Shown piece by piece: positions 19,101 to 29,078 of a stretch of DNA of 64,000 nucleotides. The translations under genes and the position numbers were made by a program. The stretch's first letter is position 1, and every line of letters starts with the position of its first letter. Origin of the DNA: Desulfosudaceae bacterium (GTDB taxonomy: Bacteria; Desulfobacterota; Desulfobacteria; Desulfobacterales; Desulfosudaceae); NCBI GenBank assembly GCA_963674745.2, contig CAXXDV010000003.1:288001-352000 (forward strand), read 5' to 3'. The notes under the pieces are model-generated. The model saw only the letters and a program-made list of their open reading frames with translations, was not told where the DNA came from and made no database searches.

Positions 19101-19281
19101 CTCTGCTCCCGCTACAAATAAACGCGTGCTTCAATGAGCACGGATTGACGGTAGTTGTCGTTAACTATCCCATAGTCCGGAATTTATAAAAAATATCCCA
19201 TAAGACATTTTTATTCTGTCCTATGGGGCATGTTTTTGCAATAAAAAAATTATAGCCTATAATTTCAAATAGTTATTTGTT

Positions 19282-19297
19282 CGGCACGGATTTGGCA
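19282..19297 (+). promoter_or_regulatory. Sigma-54 (-24/-12) promoter
   Basis: CGGCACGGATTTGGCA: GG at 19283-84, exactly 10 nt, then GC at 19295-96. Divergent from a sigma-54 activator. Confidence 0.7.
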
Positions 19298-19378
19298 AAG
19301 CATAAGAGAAACAAGGCCTCTGATGCATTCAGATGTCAAAACGGATTAAAACAAAATTTTTTATTAAAGGAGAATATC

Positions 19379-19846
19379 ATGAAAAAGAGCATCACAAAAA
19401 GAACACGCATTTCGATCCTGTTCGCAATCCTTGTCGTTGGCTGTTCGGCTCCTGCGGTTTACGCCGGTTCAGCGGTTTCAATGATCGATGATGAAGTCAT
19501 TAGTGCCCTGGAAGGTTTCCGGTTCGGTCAACCTGTTGCTCAAGCCAATGCCGCGCAGCAGCAAAACGCGGATCAGGTTGTCCTTGACGATTGTTCGATG
19601 ATCAACGAAGAAGTCATTGCCGGATTAAAGGACTTCCGGTTCGGTTCTTCAAATCAATACCTCTACGCGCAAAAAAAGAACTCACCCGTTGAGGCCACCT
19701 CATGGAGCGAAAAAAGCGACTCCATTATTGACGCCGAACTGATCAGTCAACTGGAGGGCGTTGAAATTGTCGAAGGCGTCCGGATCGTCGAAGCCAAATT
19801 TGTCGCTGACATGAGAGCAATTATGGATAAATTTGCTGAAAATTAA
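19379..19846 (+). CDS. Exported hypothetical protein with three internal repeats
   Basis: AAGGAG RBS, signal peptide (VYA-G), and repeats SMIDDEVISALEGFRFG / SMINEEVIAGLKDFRFG / SIIDAELISQLEGVEI. Confidence 0.7.
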   Translation: MKKSITKRTRISILFAILVVGCSAPAVYAGSAVSMIDDEVISALEGFRFGQPVAQANAAQQQNADQVVLDDCSMINEEVIAGLKDFRFGSSNQYLYAQKKNSPVEATSWSEKSDSIIDAELISQLEGVEIVEGVRIVEAKFVADMRAIMDKFAEN

Positions 19847-19984: not shown

Positions 19985-20112
19985 ATATTCGCGAGCGGCC
20001 TGCAGCACGGCAGAAGGGGCCAAGGGGGCTTGTCCGGAAGAGTGAATTCTCCCAACATTTTTATAATGATGATAACCCGAATATCTCCTAAAAATTTCGG
20101 GTCAAAGGAGTT

Positions 20113-20898
20113 ATGATGAAAAAAAATGGCATGTTGTTAATCACAATGGTTTTTCTGTTTACCGCCTCGCCGTCCTGGGCGACGCTGGAAATGGGTATCG
20201 GTGCCTGGAATCAGAATATCGAGGGTGATATTTCCTATTCGCTTTTCAACAATGTTACTGATGAGGCTGATCTGCATCGGGACCTGGATCTTAAAAAAGA
20301 TACCCGTGGCACCGGGTATTTAAAGCTGGAACTGCCGGTACTGCCGAGTCTTTATCTGGGCTTTACCCCCATGTCGTATAAAGGTACGGACGTGATGGAT
20401 CGGCCGTATAATTTCGGGCACTACACTTTTCTGGAGGATCGGCTGCTGGATACCCGTATGAAATTAAATCATTTCGACATTGGATTGTACTACAGCCTTA
20501 CCATGCCGGATCTGGCCGGGTTAAAACAGGTCAAGCTGGATCTGGGACTGGATCTGCGTACGGCTGAACTTGACGTGTCCGTAACCGGCACGGTCGCAAC
20601 CGGCAACGGTGAAAAACGGGTTCGGGAAGCGGAAGATTATACGCTGCCCATTCCCATGCTTTATGCTGCGGTCCAGATTACGCCCGCGGAAAAAATTTCT
20701 CTGGAATTTGAAGGGCGGGGCGTGTCTCTGGGCGGGGATGATCTGGTCAGCCTGCTGGGCAAGGTAAAGTACCGCATCCATGGGGCGTTGTTTATCGCCG
20801 CCGGCTACCGGTATGATTACATCCGCCTGGATGAAGACGATCTTAATATTGACAGTACCGTCAGCGGCATCTTTTGCGAAACCGGCCTGGAGTTCTAG
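20113..20898 (+). CDS. Outer-membrane beta-barrel protein (TIGR04219-like)
   Basis: Signal peptide, GIGAWNQ..GD, PVLPSLYL.FTP, LPIPMLY, GYRY, and a terminal Phe (GLEF). Confidence 0.7.
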   Translation: MMKKNGMLLITMVFLFTASPSWATLEMGIGAWNQNIEGDISYSLFNNVTDEADLHRDLDLKKDTRGTGYLKLELPVLPSLYLGFTPMSYKGTDVMDRPYNFGHYTFLEDRLLDTRMKLNHFDIGLYYSLTMPDLAGLKQVKLDLGLDLRTAELDVSVTGTVATGNGEKRVREAEDYTLPIPMLYAAVQITPAEKISLEFEGRGVSLGGDDLVSLLGKVKYRIHGALFIAAGYRYDYIRLDEDDLNIDSTVSGIFCETGLEF

Positions 20899-20978
20899 GC
20901 GCTCGTTTAAGTGGAATGTGTGACTGGACGTGAATGATCATAAAGTCGATTTTGCACAGATAGAGAACCGGCAACGGG

Positions 20979-21482
20979 TCAACTGGCAAAATCAGCCACA
21001 CATTTATTCAGACAGGAACGGCATGTCTTTCGGTCTAATTTGCCTGCTGAGCAATAGTCCACGTAAGCCTCGATCCAGTCCGCTCCGGCCCTGGGGCAGT
21101 TGTCGATAAACTGGATGAATTTGACTAGGCTGTTGACTGTTTCCGTGTCCATGACATGTTCCATGTGGCAGGCGGTAGCGTCCGCCTTGTCATCACCGAT
21201 TTGCAACACCCGGGACAGGAAGTCTTTGATGACCCTGTGCCGACGTTCGATTTCCCGGCCAATTTTTCGCCCCGCAGAGGTCAGCGTGATATAACTGTAA
21301 GGTTCGTAATTGACCAGCCCTTTTTCTGCCAGAACCTTGAGCGCACTTGTGACCGATCCCCGTTGAACACCGATGGCTTCGGCAATGTCTTTCTGCCTGG
21401 CAACTTTATCGGTAGTCTCCAGACGAAGAATGGCCTCCAGATAATCTTCCAGACTTTCGGAAAGAGGATTTTTCTTGTCCAT
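20979..21482 (-). CDS. DtxR/MntR family metal-dependent repressor
   Basis: SESLEDYLEAI, GSVTSAL..L.EKGLVNYEPY, RRH..I..FL, ACHMEH, and a Cys-rich tail. Confidence 0.9.
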   Translation of the reverse strand: MDKKNPLSESLEDYLEAILRLETTDKVARQKDIAEAIGVQRGSVTSALKVLAEKGLVNYEPYSYITLTSAGRKIGREIERRHRVIKDFLSRVLQIGDDKADATACHMEHVMDTETVNSLVKFIQFIDNCPRAGADWIEAYVDYCSAGKLDRKTCRSCLNKCVADFAS

Positions 21483-21542
21483 ATTTTCTTCCTTTTTAAA
21501 GTTTTTACAGTCTATCTGAGCATATTTTATAAGTTAAAACAA

Positions 21543-21599
21543 AAAAAGTTGGCTATGGCAAACTTTTTTATTGACAAATAAGTTTGAAATACCTAACTT
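21543..21599 (+). promoter_or_regulatory. feo promoter with two DtxR/MntR-type operator palindromes
   Basis: AAAAAGTTGGCTATGGCAAACTTTTT (21543-21568) and AAGTTTGAAATACCTAACTT (21580-21599) flank TTGACA (21571-76), followed by 17 nt and TAACTT. Confidence 0.7.
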
Positions 21600-21641
21600 T
21601 GTAATTCAAATAAAACACTAACTGCCGTGAAAAGAGAGGGT

Positions 21642-21923
21642 ATGATGACAATCAACATGAGAAAAATGCAAAAAAATCAGACTGGAACCATCGTTGCCGT
21701 TAAAGCCGATCGTGAGTTGGGCAGGCGAATAAGGGACATGGGCCTCGTACCGGGGACTGAGATTAGGGTCCAGGGCCGGGCACCGCTATATGATCCGGTG
21801 TCGTTACGGCTCAAAGGATTTACGCTGACGCTTCGCAATAACGAAGCAAATTTTATCGATGTCAAAATTAGTCGAAAGGGGAAAGACGAAAACAATGAAC
21901 GCAACCATCGCTTTGGCCGGTAA
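21642..21923 (+). CDS. feoA: Ferrous iron transport protein A
   Basis: RRIRDMGLVPGTEI.V.GRAPLYDP...LTLRNNEA. Confidence 0.9.
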   Translation: MMTINMRKMQKNQTGTIVAVKADRELGRRIRDMGLVPGTEIRVQGRAPLYDPVSLRLKGFTLTLRNNEANFIDVKISRKGKDENNERNHRFGR

Positions 21924-24105
21924 TCCCAATTCCGGCAAAACAACACTTTTTAACGCGCTTACCGGCGCGAGGCAGCAGGTCGGCAATTATCCCGGTGTAA
22001 CGGTGGAAAAGAAACAGGGCGTATACAAAGCCGCTGAAAGCAATTTTACGATTGTTGACCTGCCGGGGACATATTCGCTGACGGCCTATTCACTGGAAGA
22101 GGTGGTGACCAGGGATTTTCTGGTTAATGAAAAGCCGGGGATGGTAATCAATATTGTGGATGCTTCCAATCTGGAACGCAATTTATATCTTTCACTTCAA
22201 TTCATGGAACTGGGTTTGCCGGTCTGTATCGCTTTGAACATGATGGATGTCGCCCGGGACAGGGGGATAGAAATCGATATTGATATGTTGTCCCGTCTCC
22301 TGGGCGTCCCGGTAATTCCAACAGTGGCCAGAAACGGTAAAGGTAAGAAGGCACTGATGGAGACAGTGGCGAGTCAAGTAATAACACCGAAACCATCGGT
22401 TCTCAGTATCTCATATGGTGCGGAAATCGACCATGCATTGGATGAAATAGAAAAAATTATTGAGAACACGGGTTTCATGAACCAGAAATATCCAAGCCGC
22501 TGGATCGCCTTAAAATATTTGGAAAACGATCAGCAGATTATGGAAAGAGGCCGTCAGGCTTCGTCTCTCTTGTCTGGAAAGATAGAACGGGTTGTTAAGA
22601 AATTAACCGATCATCTTGCCGATACCCTGGATACCTATCCTGAGGTGGTGATTGCAGATCAACGTTACGGATATATCAGTTCCTTATTGAAACAGGGTGT
22701 TGTCAAACACCAACAGGATATCAATCGCCTGCAGTTATCCGACAGGGTCGACCGGGTGGTGACCAACCGGTTTTGGGGGCCGATTATCATGGCAGCGGTT
22801 CTTATCGGTTTATATCAGTTTACTTTTACCTATAGCGAAATACCCGTTGGCTGGATAGAAGGATTGTTCGGCCACCTGGGCGTTCTGGCCGAAAGCCGCT
22901 TGTCTGACGGTTTACTCAAGTCTTTGGTCGTGTCCGGTATTATCGACGGCGTGGGTGGTGTTCTGGGATTTGTTCCACTGATCATGTTCATGTTTTTCGG
23001 GATTTCCATCCTGGAAGATTCCGGTTACCTGGCCAGGGTGGCATATATGCTGGACCGGATTTTTCGAATGTTCGGTCTGCATGGCAGTTCCGTCATGGCT
23101 TTTATCGTGTCCGGCGGCATTGCCGGCGGCTGCGCAGTGCCGGGTGTCATGGCCGCCCGTACCCTTAAATCTTCCCGGGAACGTCTGGCCACTCTGCTGA
23201 CCGTGCCGTTTATGAACTGCGGCGCAAAACTGCCGGTTTTTGCCCTGCTGGCAGCCGCGTTCTTCGCGGAAAACGAAGCCCTGGTGATGTTGGTGATAAC
23301 GCTCATTGCCTGGGTCGGGGCCCTGCTGGTCGCCAAACTGCTGAGAAGCACGGTGGTGAGGGGGGAATCAACACCGTTTGTGATGGAATTGCCGCCTTAT
23401 CGGCTGCCCACTTTCAGGGGGCTGATGATTCACACCTGGGAACGGACCTGGCAGTATATTAAAAAAGCGGGAACCGTGATTCTGGCCATATCCGTGCTGT
23501 TGTGGGCCATGATGACCTTTCCCGGATTACCCGATGCCGAAATCGACCGGTTTGCGCAGCAGCGGTCGAAATTGCTGGCCGGTGCCTCACCGGCGGTCAC
23601 AGCCGAAATCGAAGCCGGTGAAGACGGCACGGAATTGTCTTTAAAAGCCAGGATGCTGGCGGACCGGCTGACAGCCATCGAACAAAAACAAGCCGAGGCC
23701 GGGCTGCGACATTCTCTGGCCGGACGTATCGGTACTGGATTGGAAGGCCTTACCCGTCTGGCCGGATTTGACTGGCGGACCAATATCGCCCTGGTGGGCG
23801 GGTTTGCCGCCAAAGAAGTGGTGGTGTCGACCCTGGGTACGGCCTACTCGCTGGGAGAGGTCGACCCGGAAGAAGCCGGTGCGTTGTCGGACCGGCTGGC
23901 GGCCGCTCCCGGATGGAGCCCTCTGGTGGCCCTGAGCCTGATTGTTTTTACCATTTTTTACGCGCCCTGTTTTGTGGCCGTGGTATGTATCGCCAGGGAA
24001 GCCGGCTCCTGGAAATGGGGTGCTTTTTCCATGCTGTTTAATACCGCTCTGGCCTTCTGCCTGTCCGTGACCGTATTCCAGGTGGGTTCGTTGCTGGGGT
24101 ATTAG
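21895..24105 (+). CDS. feoB: Ferrous iron transport protein B
   Basis: GNPNSGKT, VGNYPGVTVE, DLPGTYSL, NMMD, EDSGY.AR, GCAVP, FVMELP.YR, APC. Confidence 0.95.
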   Translation: MNATIALAGNPNSGKTTLFNALTGARQQVGNYPGVTVEKKQGVYKAAESNFTIVDLPGTYSLTAYSLEEVVTRDFLVNEKPGMVINIVDASNLERNLYLSLQFMELGLPVCIALNMMDVARDRGIEIDIDMLSRLLGVPVIPTVARNGKGKKALMETVASQVITPKPSVLSISYGAEIDHALDEIEKIIENTGFMNQKYPSRWIALKYLENDQQIMERGRQASSLLSGKIERVVKKLTDHLADTLDTYPEVVIADQRYGYISSLLKQGVVKHQQDINRLQLSDRVDRVVTNRFWGPIIMAAVLIGLYQFTFTYSEIPVGWIEGLFGHLGVLAESRLSDGLLKSLVVSGIIDGVGGVLGFVPLIMFMFFGISILEDSGYLARVAYMLDRIFRMFGLHGSSVMAFIVSGGIAGGCAVPGVMAARTLKSSRERLATLLTVPFMNCGAKLPVFALLAAAFFAENEALVMLVITLIAWVGALLVAKLLRSTVVRGESTPFVMELPPYRLPTFRGLMIHTWERTWQYIKKAGTVILAISVLLWAMMTFPGLPDAEIDRFAQQRSKLLAGASPAVTAEIEAGEDGTELSLKARMLADRLTAIEQKQAEAGLRHSLAGRIGTGLEGLTRLAGFDWRTNIALVGGFAAKEVVVSTLGTAYSLGEVDPEEAGALSDRLAAAPGWSPLVALSLIVFTIFYAPCFVAVVCIAREAGSWKWGAFSMLFNTALAFCLSVTVFQVGSLLGY

Positions 24106-24116
24106 GAGATAGTCCG

Positions 24117-24347
24117 ATGGAAACCGTTATTATCATATTAATCGTAACCGCGGCCATGGTGTACTTTATCCGCAGATTTGTAAAATCATGCCGACAGGAA
24201 GGCGGTTGCCAGGGGTGCACAGCATGCAATTGCGGCGGTCCGGAGACTGGATCCTGCTGTGCGATGCAACCGGATATAAGAAATAATAAAAAAAACATTA
24301 TCATGACGGAAAGTCAACTCAATGAGAAACAGGCGCGGACACCATAA
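24117..24347 (+). CDS. FeoB-associated Cys-rich small membrane protein
   Basis: N-terminal TM helix followed by GGCQGCTACNC...CC. AGGAG RBS; directly after feoB. Confidence 0.75.
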   Translation: METVIIILIVTAAMVYFIRRFVKSCRQEGGCQGCTACNCGGPETGSCCAMQPDIRNNKKNIIMTESQLNEKQARTP

Positions 24348-24540
24348 CCCGCAAGGGCAATGCCTGGAAAACCAGGTTCGCTGTTGTTGTGGAAAACTGC
24401 TGGCAAAGCAGATCGATAACGGCGTTGTACTCAAGTGCACCCGGTGCAAGCGGGAAATTATCATCCGCTTTTCCGAGGCGGATCAGTCTTACGGTTCGGA
24501 TGACAGAGGAGATCCTGTTGTGATGCTTCCTGATGAGTAA
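24322..24540 (+). CDS. Mu Com-family Cys4 zinc-finger protein
   Basis: VRCCCGKLLAK...VVLKCTRCKREI matches the Mu Com pattern (IRC..C.KLL...IEIRCPRCKR). Overlaps the upstream ORF. Confidence 0.65.
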   Translation: MRNRRGHHNPQGQCLENQVRCCCGKLLAKQIDNGVVLKCTRCKREIIIRFSEADQSYGSDDRGDPVVMLPDE

Positions 24541-24629
24541 GTGAAAAATTTGATACAAAAAAACGGCTTTGAACGCGTAAGAAAAGCCGGCGGAATAATA
24601 GAGCGGCCAGCGGCCAATTTAGAGCCTAG

Positions 24630-24670
24630 CGCCCGAAACCGGAACATACCGGTATTCGGGCGTTTTTTTT
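24630..24670 (+). terminator. Intrinsic terminator between the Com-like gene and the porin
   Basis: CGCCCGAA-ACCGG / AACATA loop / CCGGT-A-TTCGGGCG followed by T8, ending 27 nt before the porin ATG. Confidence 0.85.
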
Positions 24671-24697
24671 GAAATACATATTTTAACAGAAAGAACG

Positions 24698-25813
24698 ATG
24701 AAAAGGATGAAGCAAATGAGACGAAAAGTGATGTTGGTATGTGGGTTAATGACGATGATGGTTTTCTCGGTCGGAACGACAGCCCGGGCCGGTACAGTAA
24801 TGTCGGAGATGGATATTAACCTGTCCGGTGTTATTGAGGCGGAAGCAGGGTTCTCCAGTGATTATGATAATAACGATACTGGTGACATCGTGCTGGCTAC
24901 CATGGCGTTCGCTGTTGATACGCGACTTAACGCCTGGTGTTCCGGACATGCTCTTTTCTTATGGGAGGAAGACGTTACAGAACCGGTCGATGTTGATGAA
25001 GGTTTTATAACAGTTGGCGGCAAAGACGCGTACCCGTTCTATTTTTCCGCTGGCAAATTGTATGTCCCTTTCGGTGTATATGAAACCAGCATGGTCTCAG
25101 ACCCTCTTACACTTGAAATCGGTGAAACACGTGAGAGCGCCTTGCAGGTCGGTGTCGGATATAACGGGTTTTACGGGGCGGTTTACGCGTTTAACGGGGA
25201 TGTTCAGGATACGACTGGTAACAGCGACGATACCATTGAAACATTTGGCGTTAACACCGGGTATTTTTTTGAAAATAACGAAATCAGCGTGGACCTGGGG
25301 ATTGACTGGATCAGTAATTTAATGGATTCGGACGGACTCGAAGGCGTTTTTCAGGATGCCCGGGATGTGTTTGCTGATGCTAACCCGAACGGTTCATTTG
25401 ATCTGGAAAGTTACGTTGCCGGTATCGGTGTTCATGCCATCGTCAATGTCGCATCGTTCAGCCTCATCGGTGAATACATTATTGTAACTGATGACGTGGA
25501 TTATGTTACCGACGACGGTGCAGGATTAATTACCACCATATCATCGGACAAGCCGATGGCTTTACACCTTGAAGGTGTCTTCACATTTGAGGCCATGGGA
25601 AGAGAAATGAGTCTGGCCGCGACCTGGCAGTCTACGGATAACCTGGGCGGGTTTCTGCCGGAAATACGCTACGGCGCCGCGGCAGGCATTGCCCTGGCCG
25701 GAAATCTGGGGCTTGCCATTGAGTATGTCCATGATGAGGATTACAGCGTAAATGACGGGGGGACGGATGAGAGTGCCGACACGTTTACCCTGCAGCTGGC
25801 GCTGGCGTTTTAA
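24698..25813 (+). CDS. LbtU-family outer-membrane porin
   Basis: Signal peptide, LSGVIEAEA, VDEGFI, GKLYVPFG...SDPLTLEIGETRE, and terminal TLQLALAF. Confidence 0.75.
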   Translation: MKRMKQMRRKVMLVCGLMTMMVFSVGTTARAGTVMSEMDINLSGVIEAEAGFSSDYDNNDTGDIVLATMAFAVDTRLNAWCSGHALFLWEEDVTEPVDVDEGFITVGGKDAYPFYFSAGKLYVPFGVYETSMVSDPLTLEIGETRESALQVGVGYNGFYGAVYAFNGDVQDTTGNSDDTIETFGVNTGYFFENNEISVDLGIDWISNLMDSDGLEGVFQDARDVFADANPNGSFDLESYVAGIGVHAIVNVASFSLIGEYIIVTDDVDYVTDDGAGLITTISSDKPMALHLEGVFTFEAMGREMSLAATWQSTDNLGGFLPEIRYGAAAGIALAGNLGLAIEYVHDEDYSVNDGGTDESADTFTLQLALAF

Positions 25814-25961
25814 CAGTCGAATGAAACAGTCGCCCAAAGCCATGACCGGCCGGAAAATCAGCCTCCTGAAATTCCGGCCGGCCCGCGTTTTTATGATCAG
25901 TTCCGGATTTTTTTACTACAGTTTCTGCCATCACTGGGCGATCTTGAAAACCGGCCTTGTT

Positions 25962-28900
25962 CTACCAACCGAAGGTAATACCGGCCCGTCCGGAAACTTC
26001 ACTGCTTGTGCTGGCCGAGATGCCGGCGTTGACCAGTATTCGGTTTTCTTTCACGTAGTGAAACATACCGGCGGCAATGGCCTGTCTCGATCCATACGTG
26101 CCCACACCGACCGAGACCTGCGTATCGCCGGCTGAGCGGGCATTCGGCACCAGGGCCGACAGGGCCGCTCCCATGGCGCCGACATCATCCATCCTGTCAT
26201 CAAGGTCGCTGAGCTTGTCGTGAATCGTTTTGATATTATGAAAATTGCGGTCAATATTGCCGGTGTTGGTCGCGATGCTGTCGCTGTTGGCCGCTATGTC
26301 GCCGGTGTTGTTGTCAACCCGGCTGTCGACGGTATCCAGTTGCTGTTTGTTGACGGCGTCGGTGCTGTTGACACCGGCCGCCATGTTGGTGACGCGCCGC
26401 TGGTTGTCGGTATTGCCGACAGAAACCGTGTCCGCTTCCGAGGCCACGGCATCTTTACCCAGGGCAACACTGTTGGTCGCGCCGGAGCGAACAGCCGCGT
26501 TCTGCCCGAGAGCGGTCCCGCCATCAGCATTTGCATCCACCCGGGTATCCGCACCCACGGCCACGCTGTTTTCAGAATCAATGCCAGCGTTGGTGCCCAG
26601 GGCGGTGCTGCCGTCGGCAATGACAACGGTGCCGCGCCCGATGGCGATATCGTTGGTCCTGGCAGAGGCACCCGGCCCGATGGCAATGGCACCGTCAAAT
26701 GAAGCGCTGGAAACGCCATCACTGCCGGTTGACAGCCATTCGAGATCGGCCAAGCCGTCAGCATTGGCGGCAATCGCCCGGGTGTTTCGGTCAATATTAT
26801 AGGTATTGTTAATTGAACCGGCAACCATGCCGCTCAACTGGCTGACGTTTACGGCATCGGTCGGGTCGATGCCGGCCGCAACGTTGGTGATACGACGTTC
26901 TGACCCGGCCGCGCCCACGGAAACGGTATTGTTCTGGGCGGCAACAGAACCGGCGCCCAGGGCTACCGAGTTGGTGCCTGTGACGACGGCACCCGTACCG
27001 ATACCGATATTGCCGGTGCCGGAAACCGTGGCGCCCATGGCCGCGAAGTTGCCGTCGCCGGTCACCGTGTTGCCGTTGCCGGACACAAAGTGGTTGTCGC
27101 CGGTGACACTGTTGCTGCTGCCGTACACCCCGTTGTAGCTGCTGTTGACGACATTGTCGCTGCCGATCACCCCGTTGCTGTTACTGTCATCCGCCAGGGT
27201 GTTGTTCTGGCCGCTGACCAGGTTAAAGCCGTTATCCTCTCCGAGAGAGTTGAACATGCCGCTGACGTTATTAAAGCCGCTGCCTTCGTCGAGGCGGTTG
27301 AACATCCCGCTGACATCGTTGGCGATGTTGCCGTCTTCAAGTTGATTGATAAATCCACCGACCCGGTTAAACCCATTGTTGTCTCCCAGGGAGTTGAATA
27401 CACCGCTGACCTGGTTGCCGGAGCTGGATTCTCCCAGGTTGTTATTCAGTCCGCTGACGTTGTTTTGAGAACTGCCGTCCCCCAGGGAGTTAAATCCGCC
27501 GCCAATGACATTCCGGTCATTGTCATTTCCGAGGGTATTGTTCATGCCGCCGACAAGGTTGCTGCCGTTGTCATCACCAAGGGTGTTTAATACGCCGCTG
27601 ACACTGTTCTGGTTGCTGCCGTTACCCAACCTGTTGAGTCCGCCGCCGACAACGTTTCGTTCATTCGCTTCTCCCAGGGTGTTGGAAAAACCGGTAACAC
27701 TGTTGTGCAGGTTGTCAATTGCCAGGGTATTGCTTTCGCCACTGACCAAATTGGAATCGTTGTTGTCCCCCAGGGTATTGAATTGACCACTGATGGCGTT
27801 ATGGAGGTTGTCATTGCCGAGGGTGTTGTTCTGGCCGCTGACAAGGTTCCGATCATTGTTGTTTCCCAGCGTATTATCGCCGCCGCCGACGATGTTCCGG
27901 GCACTTCCGTTACCCAGGCTGTTGTCCCTTCCACTGACGGCGTTGTTATTGTTCCTGTTGCCCAGGGTGTTGTTTCTTCCGCTGACGGCATTGTGGTCAT
28001 TATTATTGCCCAGGATATTGTTTCTTCCGCTGACGGCGTTGTTGGTGTTGTTGTTCCCCAGGGTGTTGCTCTCTCCGCTGACCGTGTTGGCAAAGGTGTC
28101 GTCTCCCAGGGTGTTGTATCCGCCGCCGACCGTGTTGGCAATATTGATTTGACCCAGTGTATGATACCCACCGCTGACATTGTTGCTGTCACTGCCTGAA
28201 TCAAGGCTGTTGAAGATGCCGCTGACATTGTTGTGATAGGTATTATCGTTCAGCCTGTTCATCATTCCGCCGACAGTGTTCCGGTCACTGTCATCTCCAA
28301 GGGAATTGAATATACCGCTGACCTGGTTGCTGCCGCTGCCGTTACCGATCCTGTTGTTGGCACCGCTGACACTGTTCTGGTTGGCACTGTCACCCAGCCT
28401 GTTGTTCCCGCCGCCGACAATATTCCGGTCGGCGTCACTCCCGAGGCTGTTTATTGTTCCGCCAACCAGGTTTGAACTGTTGTCATTAGACAGACTGTTG
28501 TTGACACCACCGACAATGTTCCGGTCACTGTTATCTCCCAGATTATTGTTCTCACCGCTGACGGCATTTGATTCATTGTCGCCGCCGAGGACGTTGTTCT
28601 CACCGCTGACCTGGTTTGAGTTGGTATTTGACGTGCCGGAGGTACCGAGGACATTGTTCACCCCGCTGACGGCATTGTAGTCGTTTCTGCCGTAGATGAA
28701 GTTGTTTTCACCATTGACGGCGTTCATGTCGCTGTTGTTGCCGATATCGTTTTGGGCACCGCTTAACAGGTTACCGACACTGTTGTTTCTTATACGGTTA
28801 TCCTCACCATGAATAATGTTGGCGCTGCTGTCGTCATTGATGATATTGTCCCGGCCGTCGATCAGGTTGGCATCACTGTTACTGCCAATCTGGTTGTTGG

Positions 28901-29078
28901 CCCCGTTTATTTCGTTTAACTGGCTGCCGGCACCGGGGCCCGTATTGCCGGGGCCGTTTATTTCATTGGCCGTGGCAGTTAAAGGCATTGCCAGGCCAAT
29001 ACAGGCCAACATGGCAATCAACATTGCCGGCCGGTATCTTTCAAATAATGTTTTTGCGCGTAGGGTTGACGGTTTCAT
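25962..29078 (-). CDS. YadA-like trimeric autotransporter adhesin with Asn-rich 14-aa repeats
   Basis: Signal peptide; long run of N.VSG.NN.LG repeats; SVALG head repeats; two necks (RRITNVAAG..TDAVN..QL); anchor GAMGAALS...VGVGTYG...AGITFGW. AAGGAGG RBS. Confidence 0.9.
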   Translation of the reverse strand: MKPSTLRAKTLFERYRPAMLIAMLACIGLAMPLTATANEINGPGNTGPGAGSQLNEINGANNQIGSNSDANLIDGRDNIINDDSSANIIHGEDNRIRNNSVGNLLSGAQNDIGNNSDMNAVNGENNFIYGRNDYNAVSGVNNVLGTSGTSNTNSNQVSGENNVLGGDNESNAVSGENNNLGDNSDRNIVGGVNNSLSNDNSSNLVGGTINSLGSDADRNIVGGGNNRLGDSANQNSVSGANNRIGNGSGSNQVSGIFNSLGDDSDRNTVGGMMNRLNDNTYHNNVSGIFNSLDSGSDSNNVSGGYHTLGQINIANTVGGGYNTLGDDTFANTVSGESNTLGNNNTNNAVSGRNNILGNNNDHNAVSGRNNTLGNRNNNNAVSGRDNSLGNGSARNIVGGGDNTLGNNNDRNLVSGQNNTLGNDNLHNAISGQFNTLGDNNDSNLVSGESNTLAIDNLHNSVTGFSNTLGEANERNVVGGGLNRLGNGSNQNSVSGVLNTLGDDNGSNLVGGMNNTLGNDNDRNVIGGGFNSLGDGSSQNNVSGLNNNLGESSSGNQVSGVFNSLGDNNGFNRVGGFINQLEDGNIANDVSGMFNRLDEGSGFNNVSGMFNSLGEDNGFNLVSGQNNTLADDSNSNGVIGSDNVVNSSYNGVYGSSNSVTGDNHFVSGNGNTVTGDGNFAAMGATVSGTGNIGIGTGAVVTGTNSVALGAGSVAAQNNTVSVGAAGSERRITNVAAGIDPTDAVNVSQLSGMVAGSINNTYNIDRNTRAIAANADGLADLEWLSTGSDGVSSASFDGAIAIGPGASARTNDIAIGRGTVVIADGSTALGTNAGIDSENSVAVGADTRVDANADGGTALGQNAAVRSGATNSVALGKDAVASEADTVSVGNTDNQRRVTNMAAGVNSTDAVNKQQLDTVDSRVDNNTGDIAANSDSIATNTGNIDRNFHNIKTIHDKLSDLDDRMDDVGAMGAALSALVPNARSAGDTQVSVGVGTYGSRQAIAAGMFHYVKENRILVNAGISASTSSEVSGRAGITFGW

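What the first reader, a model, noticed from the sequence alone, without database searches (positions are those of the whole stretch)
24322..24700. Candidate Com-zinc-finger antitermination switch inside an iron-uptake operon
Seen: a non-phage Mu Com-like Cys4 protein ends the feoA-feoB-CysTM run. It is followed by tandem motifs AGAGCGGCC-AGCGGCC (24600-24615) and AGAGCC-TAGCGCC (24621-24633). The last motif overlaps the 5' arm of a strong terminator (24630-24670) that ends 27 nt before the LbtU-like porin, leaving little room for a separate porin promoter. Known: Mu Com is an RNA-binding zinc finger that binds tandem GA..CC-type sites just downstream of its own gene and opens an inhibitory hairpin. 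Inference: a domesticated Com protein, perhaps sensing Zn/Fe occupancy, controls read-through into the porin. This would add a post-initiation layer to DtxR/MntR repression. I know of no description of this for feo loci.
Basis: partly seen in the sequence, partly recalled or inferred. Interest (0 to 1): 0.8.

Follow-up and report, generated by a model that had tools for sequence, protein, structure and literature searches.

The report
Com-type zinc-finger RNA switch at feo
A small zinc-finger protein related to phage Mu's RNA-binding regulator Com sits in an iron-uptake gene cluster of a sulfate-reducer-type bacterium, always with a conserved RNA repeat motif that runs into a strong transcription stop signal, which suggests a previously undescribed protein-operated gate on iron-uptake genes.

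Summary
feoA-feoB, a FeoB-associated Cys-rich gene and a 72-aa Cys-rich ORF (24322-24540) are followed by GAG/GCG..CC repeats (24600-24634). The repeats run into a strong hairpin plus U8 terminator (24628-24670), 27 nt before an LbtU-type porin gene.

Pfam does not call the ORF Com. A profile of its subfamily aligns to phage Mu Com at 96% probability (E 1.7e-9).

In 14 of 17 protein-selected loci from other genomes the same RNA element lies in the locus. It has a GAGNCC box, a mini-hairpin, and a second GAGNCC box forming the 5' arm of an intrinsic terminator. 16 of the 17 are feo/DtxR/Fur/porin loci. All 4 motif-selected metagenome contigs carry the com-like gene just upstream.

A covariance model built without the window ranks the window's site first in its 5.5-Mb genome. 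In 151 genomes of the order, and in 30 porin loci, the motif occurs only where the com-like gene does. The element is not in Rfam 15.

The boxes resemble Mu Com's published RNA motif. In four loci the next gene's ribosome site follows the U tract by 10-12 nt, so it can only be read by read-through.

Best reading is Com-dependent antitermination (about 0.5). Metal sensing is untested, and no RNA data were available.

The parts
20979..21482 (-). DtxR-family iron-dependent repressor gene, divergent from feoA
   Evidence: PF02742 7.3e-21 and PF01325 1.3e-15
21627..21923 (+). feoA
   Evidence: PF04023 7.5e-17
21859..24105 (+). feoB (748-aa ORF; the true start may lie a few codons in)
   Evidence: ORF; 66-82% identical to the FeoB of related loci. 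The name comes from its G-protein N-terminus, its neighbours and those relatives; it was not scanned against Pfam itself.
24117..24347 (+). FeoB-associated Cys-rich membrane protein
   Evidence: PF12669 4.5e-07, 30.5 bits against cut-off 27
24322..24540 (+). Com-like zinc-ribbon protein, 72 aa; conserved core R20-F50
   Evidence: Subfamily alignment; hhalign to Mu Com 96.3%, E 1.7e-9; PHROGs hits; AF2 three-strand ribbon at residues 26-49 with pLDDT about 90
24601..24608 (+). Box 1 (GAGCGGCC); the family consensus is GAG[G/A]CC
   Evidence: Alignments A4 and A5: the box is invariant in 14 of 14 sequences from other genomes
24605..24615 (+). Mini-hairpin P1, GGCC-AGC-GGCC (family: GGCC-AGA-GGUC)
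   Evidence: Folds. Pair counts show 89% of cells paired. One pair appears as G-U, A-U or, in the window, G-C, changing on one side at a time; 2 of 14 sequences break the stem.
24621..24626 (+). Box 3 (AGAGCC); family AGAACC, missing in L044 and L047
24628..24634 (+). Box 4 (AGCGCCC); family GAG[C/T]CC. It is the outer 5' arm of the terminator.
   Evidence: Invariant in 14 of 14 sequences from other genomes; paired within the terminator stem in every fold
24628..24670 (+). Intrinsic terminator: bulged 15-bp hairpin 24628-24664 with U8 tract 24663-24670
   Evidence: -34 kcal/mol for the 80-nt element, z -4.6. Covariation in the family: 6 of 12 stem pairs change on both sides.
24698..25813 (+). 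LbtU-family siderophore porin gene, the candidate gated gene
   Evidence: NF033652 3.7e-85, 286 bits against cut-off 90; single copy in the genome

Best explanation
The 72-aa protein is a chromosomal member of the phage Mu Com family of RNA-binding zinc-ribbon regulators. It is made from the iron-regulated feoA-feoB-cysTM-com transcript. The proposed mechanism is that it binds the nascent RNA just downstream at two GAGNCC-type boxes. Box 1 sits beside a mini-hairpin, and box 4 is the 5' arm of a strong intrinsic terminator. Binding would keep the terminator from forming, so RNA polymerase reads through into the LbtU-type porin gene. In relatives the gated gene is feoA, a Fur-FeoA fusion or another porin. 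Without the protein, transcription would stop at 24670.

**Shown:** homology to Com; the element's anatomy; co-conservation of the protein and the RNA element; overlap of box 4 with the terminator arm; lack of promoter room in several relatives.

**Inferred:** that the protein binds this RNA, and that binding causes read-through rather than some other outcome.

**Speculative:** any dependence on Zn or Fe occupancy.
For: 1. **Homology.** The subfamily profile A3 against Mu Com gives 96.3% probability, E 1.7e-9, over 36 columns that cover both knuckles. Pairwise BLASTP gives 44% over 27 residues. PHROGs gives 'translational regulator' at 6.3e-5 and 'gpCom' at 7e-4. Of 57 family members scanned, 7 hit PF10122 at E<=0.01 and 2 of them exceed its cut-off.
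2. **Conserved element.** Box 1, the mini-hairpin, box 4 and the terminator are found in 14 of 17 loci chosen only by the protein. In 13 of these the element starts 20-76 nt, and once 405 nt, after the com-like stop. In L056 it lies 3.5 kb on, after feoB.
3. **Reverse test.** 4 of 4 metagenome contigs chosen only by the RNA pattern have the com-like gene directly upstream. Three of the four are near-copies of loci already held.
4. **Specificity.** In 151 genomes of the order, the com-like gene is in 2 and motif hits of 60 bits or more are in the same 2. Of 30 LbtU-porin loci, only the 2 with the com-like gene carry the motif; the best hit in the other 28 is 13.5 bits.
5. **Leave-one-out.** A model built without the window finds the window's site as the top hit in its own genome (40.7 bits against 22.3 for the next).
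6. **The motif tracks the com-like gene, not the neighbours.** Upstream regulators vary (DtxR, MarR, Fur) and downstream genes vary (porin, FeoA, Fur-FeoA, unknown).
7. **Read-through is required.** In L048, L053, L054 and L057 the start codon follows the U tract by 10-12 nt with the ribosome site in between. These genes can therefore only be transcribed through the terminator.
8. **Published parallel.** Mu Com recognises GAG(N)2CC and CC(N)2-3GAG motifs in and beside a short hairpin next to, and overlapping, an inhibitory hairpin (PMC6483171, passages read). The layout here is parallel.
9. **Strength and novelty of the RNA.** The terminators are strong (-23 to -35 kcal/mol). The element is not in Rfam 15.
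Against: - There is no expression or binding data. No RNA run was available for this organism.
- Pfam's Com model does not hit the window protein even at E<=1. The first knuckle is CxC rather than Mu's CxxC.
- The window's boxes are off consensus (GCG for GAG in boxes 2 and 4, two extra bases in box 1). Its leave-one-out score (40.7 bits) is well below the 65-81 bits of typical members.
- G003/L043, the closest relative held as DNA (64% identical), keeps the com-like gene but has no motif, no terminator and no porin. L055 also lacks the motif.
- L058, and the more distant G284 and G465, have the repeats but no U tract, with the ribosome site close by. In those cases control may be translational, as in Mu.
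- In AT-rich loci (L045, L049, L059, L082) -10-like hexamers lie just upstream of the motif. A separate transcript start there cannot be excluded.
- The spacing inside the boxes (GAG-N-CC) differs from the Mu SELEX motif (GAG-NN-CC).
- The loci are related to one another, and there are about 20 protein lineages below 80% core identity. The counts are therefore not independent trials.
Confidence: 0.5

Rival explanations
1. Com-like translational or stability control, as in Mu, with a constitutive terminator. The protein binds the boxes, but the hairpin simply ends the feo transcript. The porin is made from its own start site, and the protein tunes translation or decay of its own or the neighbouring mRNA.
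For: Mu Com is a translational activator (PMC6483171; annotation). L058, G284 and G465 have the repeats next to a ribosome site without a U tract. Gaps of 44-63 nt in six loci leave some room for a promoter.
Against: In L048, L053, L054 and L057 only 10-12 nt separate the U tract from the start codon, so there is no room for a promoter. The hairpin does not cover the ribosome site in any terminator-type locus. No promoter-like site was found on the + strand in the window.
Confidence: 0.17
2. The conserved boxes plus terminator are a small RNA, either processed from the 3' UTR or made from its own promoter, that acts in trans on iron-related mRNAs. The com-like protein would be its dedicated partner, or merely a neighbour.
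For: A conserved single-stranded stretch followed by a terminator hairpin is the usual anatomy of a small RNA. -10-like hexamers lie just upstream of the motif in some AT-rich loci (read). The element is 3.5 kb from the com-like gene in L056 and 405 nt away in L046.
Against: The next gene is tightly coupled to the U tract in several loci (10-12 nt). The element is always upstream of, and on the same strand as, an uptake gene. No candidate target pairing was looked for or seen. Where the com-like stop is only 20-25 nt from the motif, a promoter would have to lie inside the coding region.
Confidence: 0.13
3. The protein is a FeoC-like metal-binding accessory of FeoB, or a DNA-binding regulator that uses the direct repeats as an operator. 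The terminator would be an ordinary operon end.
For: Its position after feoB resembles feoC. It is cysteine-rich (CCC). The repeats are direct repeats, which DNA-binding proteins can also read.
Against: It is homologous to an RNA-binding protein. The module also occurs away from feoB, as MarR-com-motif-porin and Fur-com-motif-feoA. The last repeat is always embedded in the 5' arm of the hairpin and always on the transcribed strand. The middle cysteine is not kept in L053, L054 or L058. There is no winged-helix or FeoC hit.
Confidence: 0.08
4. Chance resemblance: an ordinary terminator preceded by GC-rich sequence that happens to look repetitive.
For: The repeats are short, and the window's copies are imperfect.
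Against: Leave-one-out model E 2.7e-7, unique in the genome. Boxes invariant in 14 of 14 other genomes, while the terminator's inner stem and loop vary. Strict co-occurrence with the com-like gene.
Confidence: 0.02

Closest known systems
Phage Mu Com and the com-mom translational activation system (Pfam PF10122)
   Same: Small zinc-ribbon protein of about 60-70 aa with a floppy C-terminal tail. Homologous by profile. The gene lies directly ahead of the regulated gene. The RNA target is built from GAG..CC-type boxes, one beside a short hairpin and one overlapping the 5' side of an inhibitory hairpin (PMC6483171).
   Different: Chromosomal rather than in a phage, and set in iron-uptake loci. The inhibitory structure is an intrinsic terminator (hairpin plus U tract) rather than a hairpin hiding a start codon. 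The first knuckle is CxC, not CxxC. The boxes are GAG-N-CC, not GAG-NN-CC. It is below Pfam's threshold.
Com-like genes preceding lectin-like bacteriocin (llpA), tailocin-cargo and levansucrase genes in Pseudomonas (Ghequire et al., reviewed in PMC6240691; passages read)
   Same: A non-phage, chromosomal com-like gene directly upstream of a cargo gene. The review states that the regulatory role 'remains to be explored'.
   Different: Those proteins are PF10122 members with other cargo. The passages I read describe no RNA element or terminator. Here the cargo is iron uptake and a conserved RNA element is defined.
RNA-binding antiterminators: BglG/SacY/LicT (CAT domain with a RAT site), ANTAR proteins (AmiR, NasR, EutV) and HutP (review PMC12591593, abstract and passages read)
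   Same: The proposed logic is the same: the protein binds nascent RNA at a site overlapping the 5' arm of a terminator and allows read-through into downstream genes.
   Different: No CAT, ANTAR or HutP domain. The protein is a bare zinc ribbon with no sensor domain. The review has no occurrence of 'zinc', and the three matches to 'com' that were shown were web addresses.
FeoC, the small Cys-containing protein encoded after feoB in gammaproteobacteria (recalled, not from a call)
   Same: A small cysteine-bearing protein encoded at the end of a feo operon.
   Different: FeoC is a winged-helix protein (recalled). This protein is a Com-type zinc ribbon with no FeoC or winged-helix hit, and it also occurs away from feoB.

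Membership tests
Mu Com family (PF10122, Zn_ribbon_Com) | Four conserved cysteines in two knuckles of a short zinc ribbon | tested here: met
   C21, C23, C39 and C42 are invariant in 14 of 14 subfamily sequences and align to Com's knuckles. The first knuckle is CxC rather than CxxC. AF2 gives a three-strand ribbon at pLDDT about 90.
Mu Com family (PF10122, Zn_ribbon_Com) | Match to the Pfam model above its gathering score | tested here: not met
   No PF10122 hit for the window protein at E<=1. Of 57 profile-search relatives scanned, 7 hit at E<=0.01 and only 2 exceed 22.9 bits.
Mu Com family (PF10122, Zn_ribbon_Com) | Detectable homology to Mu Com itself | tested here: met
   hhalign of A3 against Mu Com: 96.3%, E 1.7e-9, 36 columns, 39% identity. 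BLASTP 5e-05 for the pair. PHROGs 6417 and 13819.
Mu Com family (PF10122, Zn_ribbon_Com) | Binds RNA carrying GAG..CC motifs in or next to a hairpin | not testable with these tools
   Only indirect evidence: conserved GAGNCC boxes and a mini-hairpin co-occur with the gene. The motif definition comes from PMC6483171.
Mu Com family (PF10122, Zn_ribbon_Com) | Gene lies directly upstream of the gene it controls | tested here: met
   com-like stop at 24540, element at 24600-24670, porin start at 24698. The same order holds in 13 of 17 related loci.
Intrinsic (Rho-independent) terminator | GC-rich hairpin directly followed by a U tract | tested here: met
   15-bp bulged stem plus U8. Stem covariation across the family: 6 of 12 pairs change on both sides, and 0 of 500 shuffles reach the score.
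CAT/PRD or ANTAR RNA-binding antiterminators | CAT (PF03123) or ANTAR (PF03861) domain | tested here: not met
   No such hit at E<=1. This is a functional analogy only.
Any described RNA family (Rfam 15) | Match to a curated covariance model | tested here: not met
   0 matches at E<=1 in window 20000-27000. Nothing on the element at E<=0.1 in 10 related loci.
FeoC | Winged-helix FeoC domain | tested here: not met
   No FeoC or HTH family hit among the Pfam results at E<=1.

The most novel reading that the evidence does not exclude
Com-type zinc ribbons are a previously unrecognised family of bacterial RNA-binding antiterminators. A bare protein of about 30 structured residues reads GAGNCC boxes on nascent RNA and disarms an intrinsic terminator. 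The Mu com-mom system would then be one phage offshoot of an old and wider protein-RNA recognition pair. In Desulfobacterota the module gates ferrous-iron transporter and siderophore-porin genes. The cysteine site's metal occupancy (Zn against Fe(II), or oxidation state) would set RNA binding, giving iron uptake a second, post-initiation sensor on top of DtxR or Fur.
Probability: 0.15. Interest if true: 0.9.

Novelty: new variant of a known kind. Interest (0 to 1): 0.72.

Why it matters
Known protein-operated terminator switches in bacteria use a handful of RNA-binding domains: CAT, ANTAR, HutP, TRAP and PyrR-type. A Com-type zinc ribbon doing this job would add a new and very small domain to that list. 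It would also give the many unexplained chromosomal com-like genes a testable function; the Pseudomonas bacteriocin review calls their role unexplored.

It would further show that iron-uptake genes in anaerobes carry a second control layer after transcription initiation. The conserved 70-80-nt element with two invariant boxes, together with a 72-aa protein, makes a compact pair that is easy to test in a gel shift, an in vitro termination assay or a reporter. It could also be useful as a small orthogonal regulatory part.

I found no description of it in four literature searches or in Rfam 15.

Tried and rejected
- **Pfam and NCBIfam on the 72-aa ORF:** no Com hit.
- **PDB sequence search with the subfamily profile:** nothing at E<0.1, and no Com entry.
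- **Foldseek of the AF2 model against PDB:** no match at E<=0.001. The top rows are assorted zinc ribbons at E>=0.8 and were not used as evidence.
- **Sequencing runs:** no RNA holder listed, only two DNA contig runs from one study.
- **Repeated element (REP or MITE) idea:** rejected, because the intergenic stretch is single-copy in the genome.
- **Generic porin-leader idea:** rejected, because 28 of 28 com-less porin loci lack the motif.
- **Weak covariance-model hits (21-37 bits) in com-less genomes:** cmsearch printed six alignments. The three weak ones (from G024 and G082) were plain terminators lacking boxes 1-2. The other weak hits were not inspected.
- **DtxR-box reading of 24618-24636:** rejected by eye against a recalled consensus; the fit is poor.
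- **The 43-aa ORF at 24541-24672:** no family hit, treated as spurious.
- **A shared -35-like TTGATA upstream of the motif in the window and G014:** no usable -10 follows, so it was not pursued.
- **Word-index protein search:** found only 3 relatives. The exhaustive profile search was needed (735 hits at E<=0.001).
- **Complex prediction:** not used, since no protein-protein claim is made.
Full report
**Observation.**
ORFs and family scans give this layout:
- a DtxR-family repressor gene at 20979-21482 (-);
- feoA at 21627-21923;
- feoB at 21859-24105;
- a FeoB-associated Cys-rich membrane protein at 24117-24347 (PF12669);
- a 72-aa cysteine-rich ORF at 24322-24540 that overlaps the previous gene by 26 nt;
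- a 157-nt spacer;
- an LbtU-family siderophore porin at 24698-25813 (NF033652, 3.7e-85).

The spacer holds AGAGCGGCC-AGCGGCC (24600-24615) and AGAGCC-TAGCGCC (24621-24633). It also holds a bulged 15-bp hairpin (24628-24664) whose end runs into a U8 tract (24663-24670). Folding gives -34 kcal/mol for the 80-nt element, z = -4.6, and 0 of 200 shuffles fold as well. The simple terminator scan missed the hairpin because of the bulge. The same scan found no sigma-70-like site on the + strand anywhere in 20800-26200. The spacer is single-copy in the 5.5-Mb genome, so it is not a dispersed repeat.

**Is the protein Com-like?**
Pfam and NCBIfam give no Com hit, even at E<=1. PHROGs gives two Com-type families: 'translational regulator' at 6.3e-5 and 'gpCom control of modification' at 7e-4.

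The word-index search found only three relatives. An exhaustive profile search found 735 proteins at E<=0.001 and 19 at E<=1e-10. They are small proteins with a shared core, R-C-x-C-G-x-L-L-A-K/R ... I/L-K/R-C-x-R-C-K-R. Of 57 scanned, 7 hit PF10122 at E<=0.01 and 2 exceed its cut-off.

I fetched phage Mu's annotated com gene (AF083977) and compared it with the 14-sequence subfamily profile. hhalign gives 96.3% probability, E 1.7e-9, over 36 columns that span both knuckles. The pairwise BLASTP is 44% over 27 residues.

The first knuckle here is CxC, one residue shorter than Mu's CxxC, which may be why the Pfam model fails. AlphaFold2 with the subfamily alignment gives a confident three-strand ribbon (residues 26-49, pLDDT about 90) with low-confidence tails. 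That fits the published description of Com as a zinc finger plus a disordered tail (PMC6483171). Foldseek and a PDB sequence search gave nothing significant.

I conclude that the protein is a real but distant Com homologue that does not meet Pfam's own threshold.

**Genomic company of the protein.**
A scan of one-genome-per-species contigs with the subfamily alignment returned 17 loci, mostly Desulfobacterales MAGs by their record titles. In 16 of 17, feoA, feoB, a DtxR-like gene or an LbtU-like porin lies within the 4-kb flanks. The exception is a Polyangia locus with a tandem-doubled Com-like protein.

The gene's position varies:
- after feoB (window, L043, L046, L052, L058);
- between a DtxR- or MarR-type regulator and a porin (L044, L047, L049-L051, L059; MarR shown only for L044, by Pfam);
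- after a Fur gene and ahead of feoA-feoB (L048, L053), or ahead of a Fur-FeoA fusion (L054, L057).

**The RNA element.**
Reading the DNA downstream of each com-like stop showed the same element in 13 of the 17 loci. A pattern scan found it in a fourteenth, L056, 3.5 kb further on, after feoB.

Aligned, the element consists of:
- box 1, GAG[G/A]CC, invariant in 14 of 14 sequences from other genomes;
- a mini-hairpin GGCC-NNN-GGUC that shares its 5' arm with box 1;
- a usually present AGAACC;
- box 4, GAG[C/T]CC, invariant in 14 of 14, which always forms the outer 5' arm of a strong hairpin followed by a U tract.

The terminator's inner stem and loop vary freely and covary. 6 of 12 pairs change on both sides, 89% of cells are paired, and 0 of 500 shuffles reach the covariation score; slid controls fall to 26-55% paired. 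The mini-hairpin has only one-sided changes and is broken in 2 of 14 sequences, so it is plausible but not proven.

Three protein-selected loci do not have the full element. L058 has the repeats but no terminator. L043 (the same genome as G003) and L055 have neither. The window's copy is a divergent variant: box 1 has two extra bases, and boxes 2 and 4 have GCG where the family has GAG.

**Controls.**

| Test | Result |
|---|---|
| Model built without the window (R2), searched on the whole genome | Window site 40.7 bits, E 2.7e-7; next best 22.3 bits |
| 151 genomes sampled from the order | com-like profile in 2 (G000, G014); motif hits of 60 bits or more in the same 2 |
| 30 LbtU-porin loci from 201 genomes of the order | Motif only in the 2 that also hold the com-like gene; best in the other 28 is 13.5 bits |
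| Strict IUPAC version of the motif against metagenome contigs | 4 contigs, all 4 with the com-like gene 40-70 nt upstream (3 of 4 are near-copies of loci already held) |
| Rfam 15 | No match for the element |

In the order sample, seven further genomes had weak hits of 26-35 bits. One search printed six alignments; the three weak ones were plain terminators with boxes 1-2 deleted. I did not inspect the rest.

The loci are related, and the core of the protein falls into about 20 groups below 80% identity. The counts are therefore not independent trials.

**What follows the terminator.**
The gap from the end of the U tract to the next start codon differs between loci. The automatic values for L048, L050, L053 and L054 were wrong, so I corrected them by reading the sequence.

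| Gap (nt) | Loci |
|---|---|
| 10-12 | L048, L053, L054, L057 |
| 26-31 | window, L044, L047, L052, L056 |
| 44-63 | remaining six |

In the first group the ribosome site sits in the gap and the next gene is FeoA or a Fur-FeoA fusion. No promoter can fit there, so these genes must be transcribed through the terminator. A very stable, sequence-conserved terminator inside an operon, always accompanied by a gene for an RNA-binding-type protein, is the signature of a conditional terminator.

**Link to what Mu Com does.**
I read passages of PMC6483171. SELEX gave a bipartite motif, NGAGNNCC(N)2-3GAGNNCCNN. Com prefers the motif in a short hairpin whose loop-closing pair is C-G, with an accessible GA. 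In mom mRNA the motifs lie next to the translation-inhibiting hairpin and partly overlap it, and Com is thought to melt that hairpin.

The element here has the same logic: one box at a short hairpin with a C-G closing pair, and a second box overlapping the 5' side of the inhibitory hairpin. The differences are that the inhibitory hairpin is a terminator and that the boxes are GAG-N-CC. One detail is off: in Mu the site lies inside the 3' part of com, ahead of mom.

**Mechanism proposed.**
1. When DtxR or Fur repression lifts, the feo transcript, including the com-like gene, is made.
2. Transcription stops at 24670 unless the Com-like protein has accumulated.
3. The protein binds boxes 1 and 4 on the nascent RNA, box 4 cannot pair, and polymerase reads on into the porin gene.

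This gives a delay or threshold gate on outer-membrane uptake. In other genomes it gates FeoA and FeoB themselves. Homology, anatomy, co-occurrence and the need for read-through in some loci are shown. Binding and the direction of the effect are inferred.

Metal sensing is speculation. The extra middle cysteine (CCC) is nearly invariant in the closest subfamily, but it is R, H or P in the motif-bearing L053, L054 and L058.

**Evidence against, and limits.**
- No RNA run exists for the organism.
- G003/L043, the closest relative for which I have DNA, keeps the gene without the element. There the gene abuts two convergent small ORFs.
- A phylum-level sample found the com-like gene in 6 of 401 genomes, including this one. 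The five new carriers have no feo gene within about 1.5 kb.
  - The model hits 2 of the 5 weakly (28.8 and 21.5 bits). Both hits lie 60-75 nt downstream of the com-like gene on the same strand.
  - By eye, GAG..CC-type repeats follow the gene in 3 of 5.
  - G284 and G465 have no U tract and have a ribosome site close by, so control there may be translational, as in Mu.
- The module is therefore wider than feo, and its output may differ between lineages.
- In AT-rich loci, -10-like hexamers just upstream of the motif leave open a separate start for a leader or a small RNA.

**Rivals.**
- Translational or stability control with a constitutive terminator: 0.17.
- A small RNA, 3'-UTR-derived or independent: 0.13.
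- A FeoC-like accessory protein or a DNA operator: 0.08.
- Chance: 0.02.

**Known or new.**
Chromosomal com-like genes ahead of cargo genes are on record for Pseudomonas bacteriocin, tailocin and levansucrase genes, with the role 'to be explored' (PMC6240691, passages read). A 2025 review of RNA-binding antiterminators covers CAT, ANTAR and HutP and contains no occurrence of 'zinc' (PMC12591593, abstract and passages). Four literature searches gave no paper that links Com-like proteins to feo loci or to terminators.

An earlier unchecked note of this scan (e1-6357027) proposes a doubled Com-type zinc finger next to a terminator-ending RNA ahead of phage capsid genes. I did not test it, but it points the same way.

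I file this as a new variant of a known kind: a Com-type regulator whose target structure is a terminator, domesticated in iron-uptake loci, with a defined conserved RNA element.

**Verdict.**
Confidence in Com-dependent antitermination is about 0.5. Interest is 0.72.

Noticed in passing
L032, L035, L036, L039, L040 (upstream of LbtU-like porin genes in com-less genomes G019, G030, G002, G186, G188): A different recurring leader lies 30-60 nt before the porin start: GCCACGAAGG ... inner hairpin ... CGTGGC plus a U tract. It is not in Rfam 15. It may be a second, Com-independent attenuator or terminator class for these porins (seen).
   Followed up: partly
L017 (G071), about 40 nt before the porin start: A near-perfect palindrome, TTAGTTAGGCTTACCTAA, lies downstream of a terminator. 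It looks like a DtxR/IdeR-type iron box (consensus recalled, not tested), so that porin has its own iron-regulated promoter.
   Followed up: no
window 24379-24480; L058 4010-4110: The two elements with GCGGCC-type boxes (the window and L058) belong to proteins with V/I-L-K-C before the second knuckle. Every locus with GAGGCC boxes whose core was read has I-K/R-C there. This is a possible protein-RNA co-variation, but it rests on only two cases.
   Followed up: no
P0011, P0014-P0016, P0020-P0022, P0024, P0025; L055 2377-2577: Many relatives from the profile search are tandem-doubled Com-like ribbons in one chain. This would fit recognition of two RNA boxes.
   Followed up: no
L045 1021-2214; L046 6013-7209: A DUF2325 protein of about 398 aa recurs in com-like feo loci (PF10087, 1.9e-27 and 3e-22). 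Its function is unknown.
   Followed up: no
L046 4162-4509 (G014): A 115-aa predicted membrane ORF with no Pfam hit lies between the com-like gene and the RNA element, overlapping the com-like stop.
   Followed up: no
L002/L043 (G003), directly after the com-like stop: Two small convergent ORFs that look like a toxin-antitoxin pair (by eye, not scanned) replace the RNA element and the porin. This is a possible insertion that broke the module.
   Followed up: no
window 19277-19846 (+): A 189-aa ORF with a signal-peptide-like start and three internal repeats of about 35 aa (..D/E-E-V-I-x-x-L-x-x-F-R-F-G..). No family was found beyond a chance-level hit.
   Followed up: no
window 25962-29078 (-): A 1038-aa ORF made of dozens of N-x-V/I-S/G-G repeats with a YadA-like C-terminal end lies convergent to the porin. 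It looks like a trimeric autotransporter adhesin (by eye, not scanned).
   Followed up: no
L089 (G284) and L085 (G465), downstream of the com-like gene: GAG..CC repeats are followed within 15-40 nt by a ribosome site and a secreted-protein or porin-like gene, without a U tract. This may be a translational version of the same switch.
   Followed up: partly
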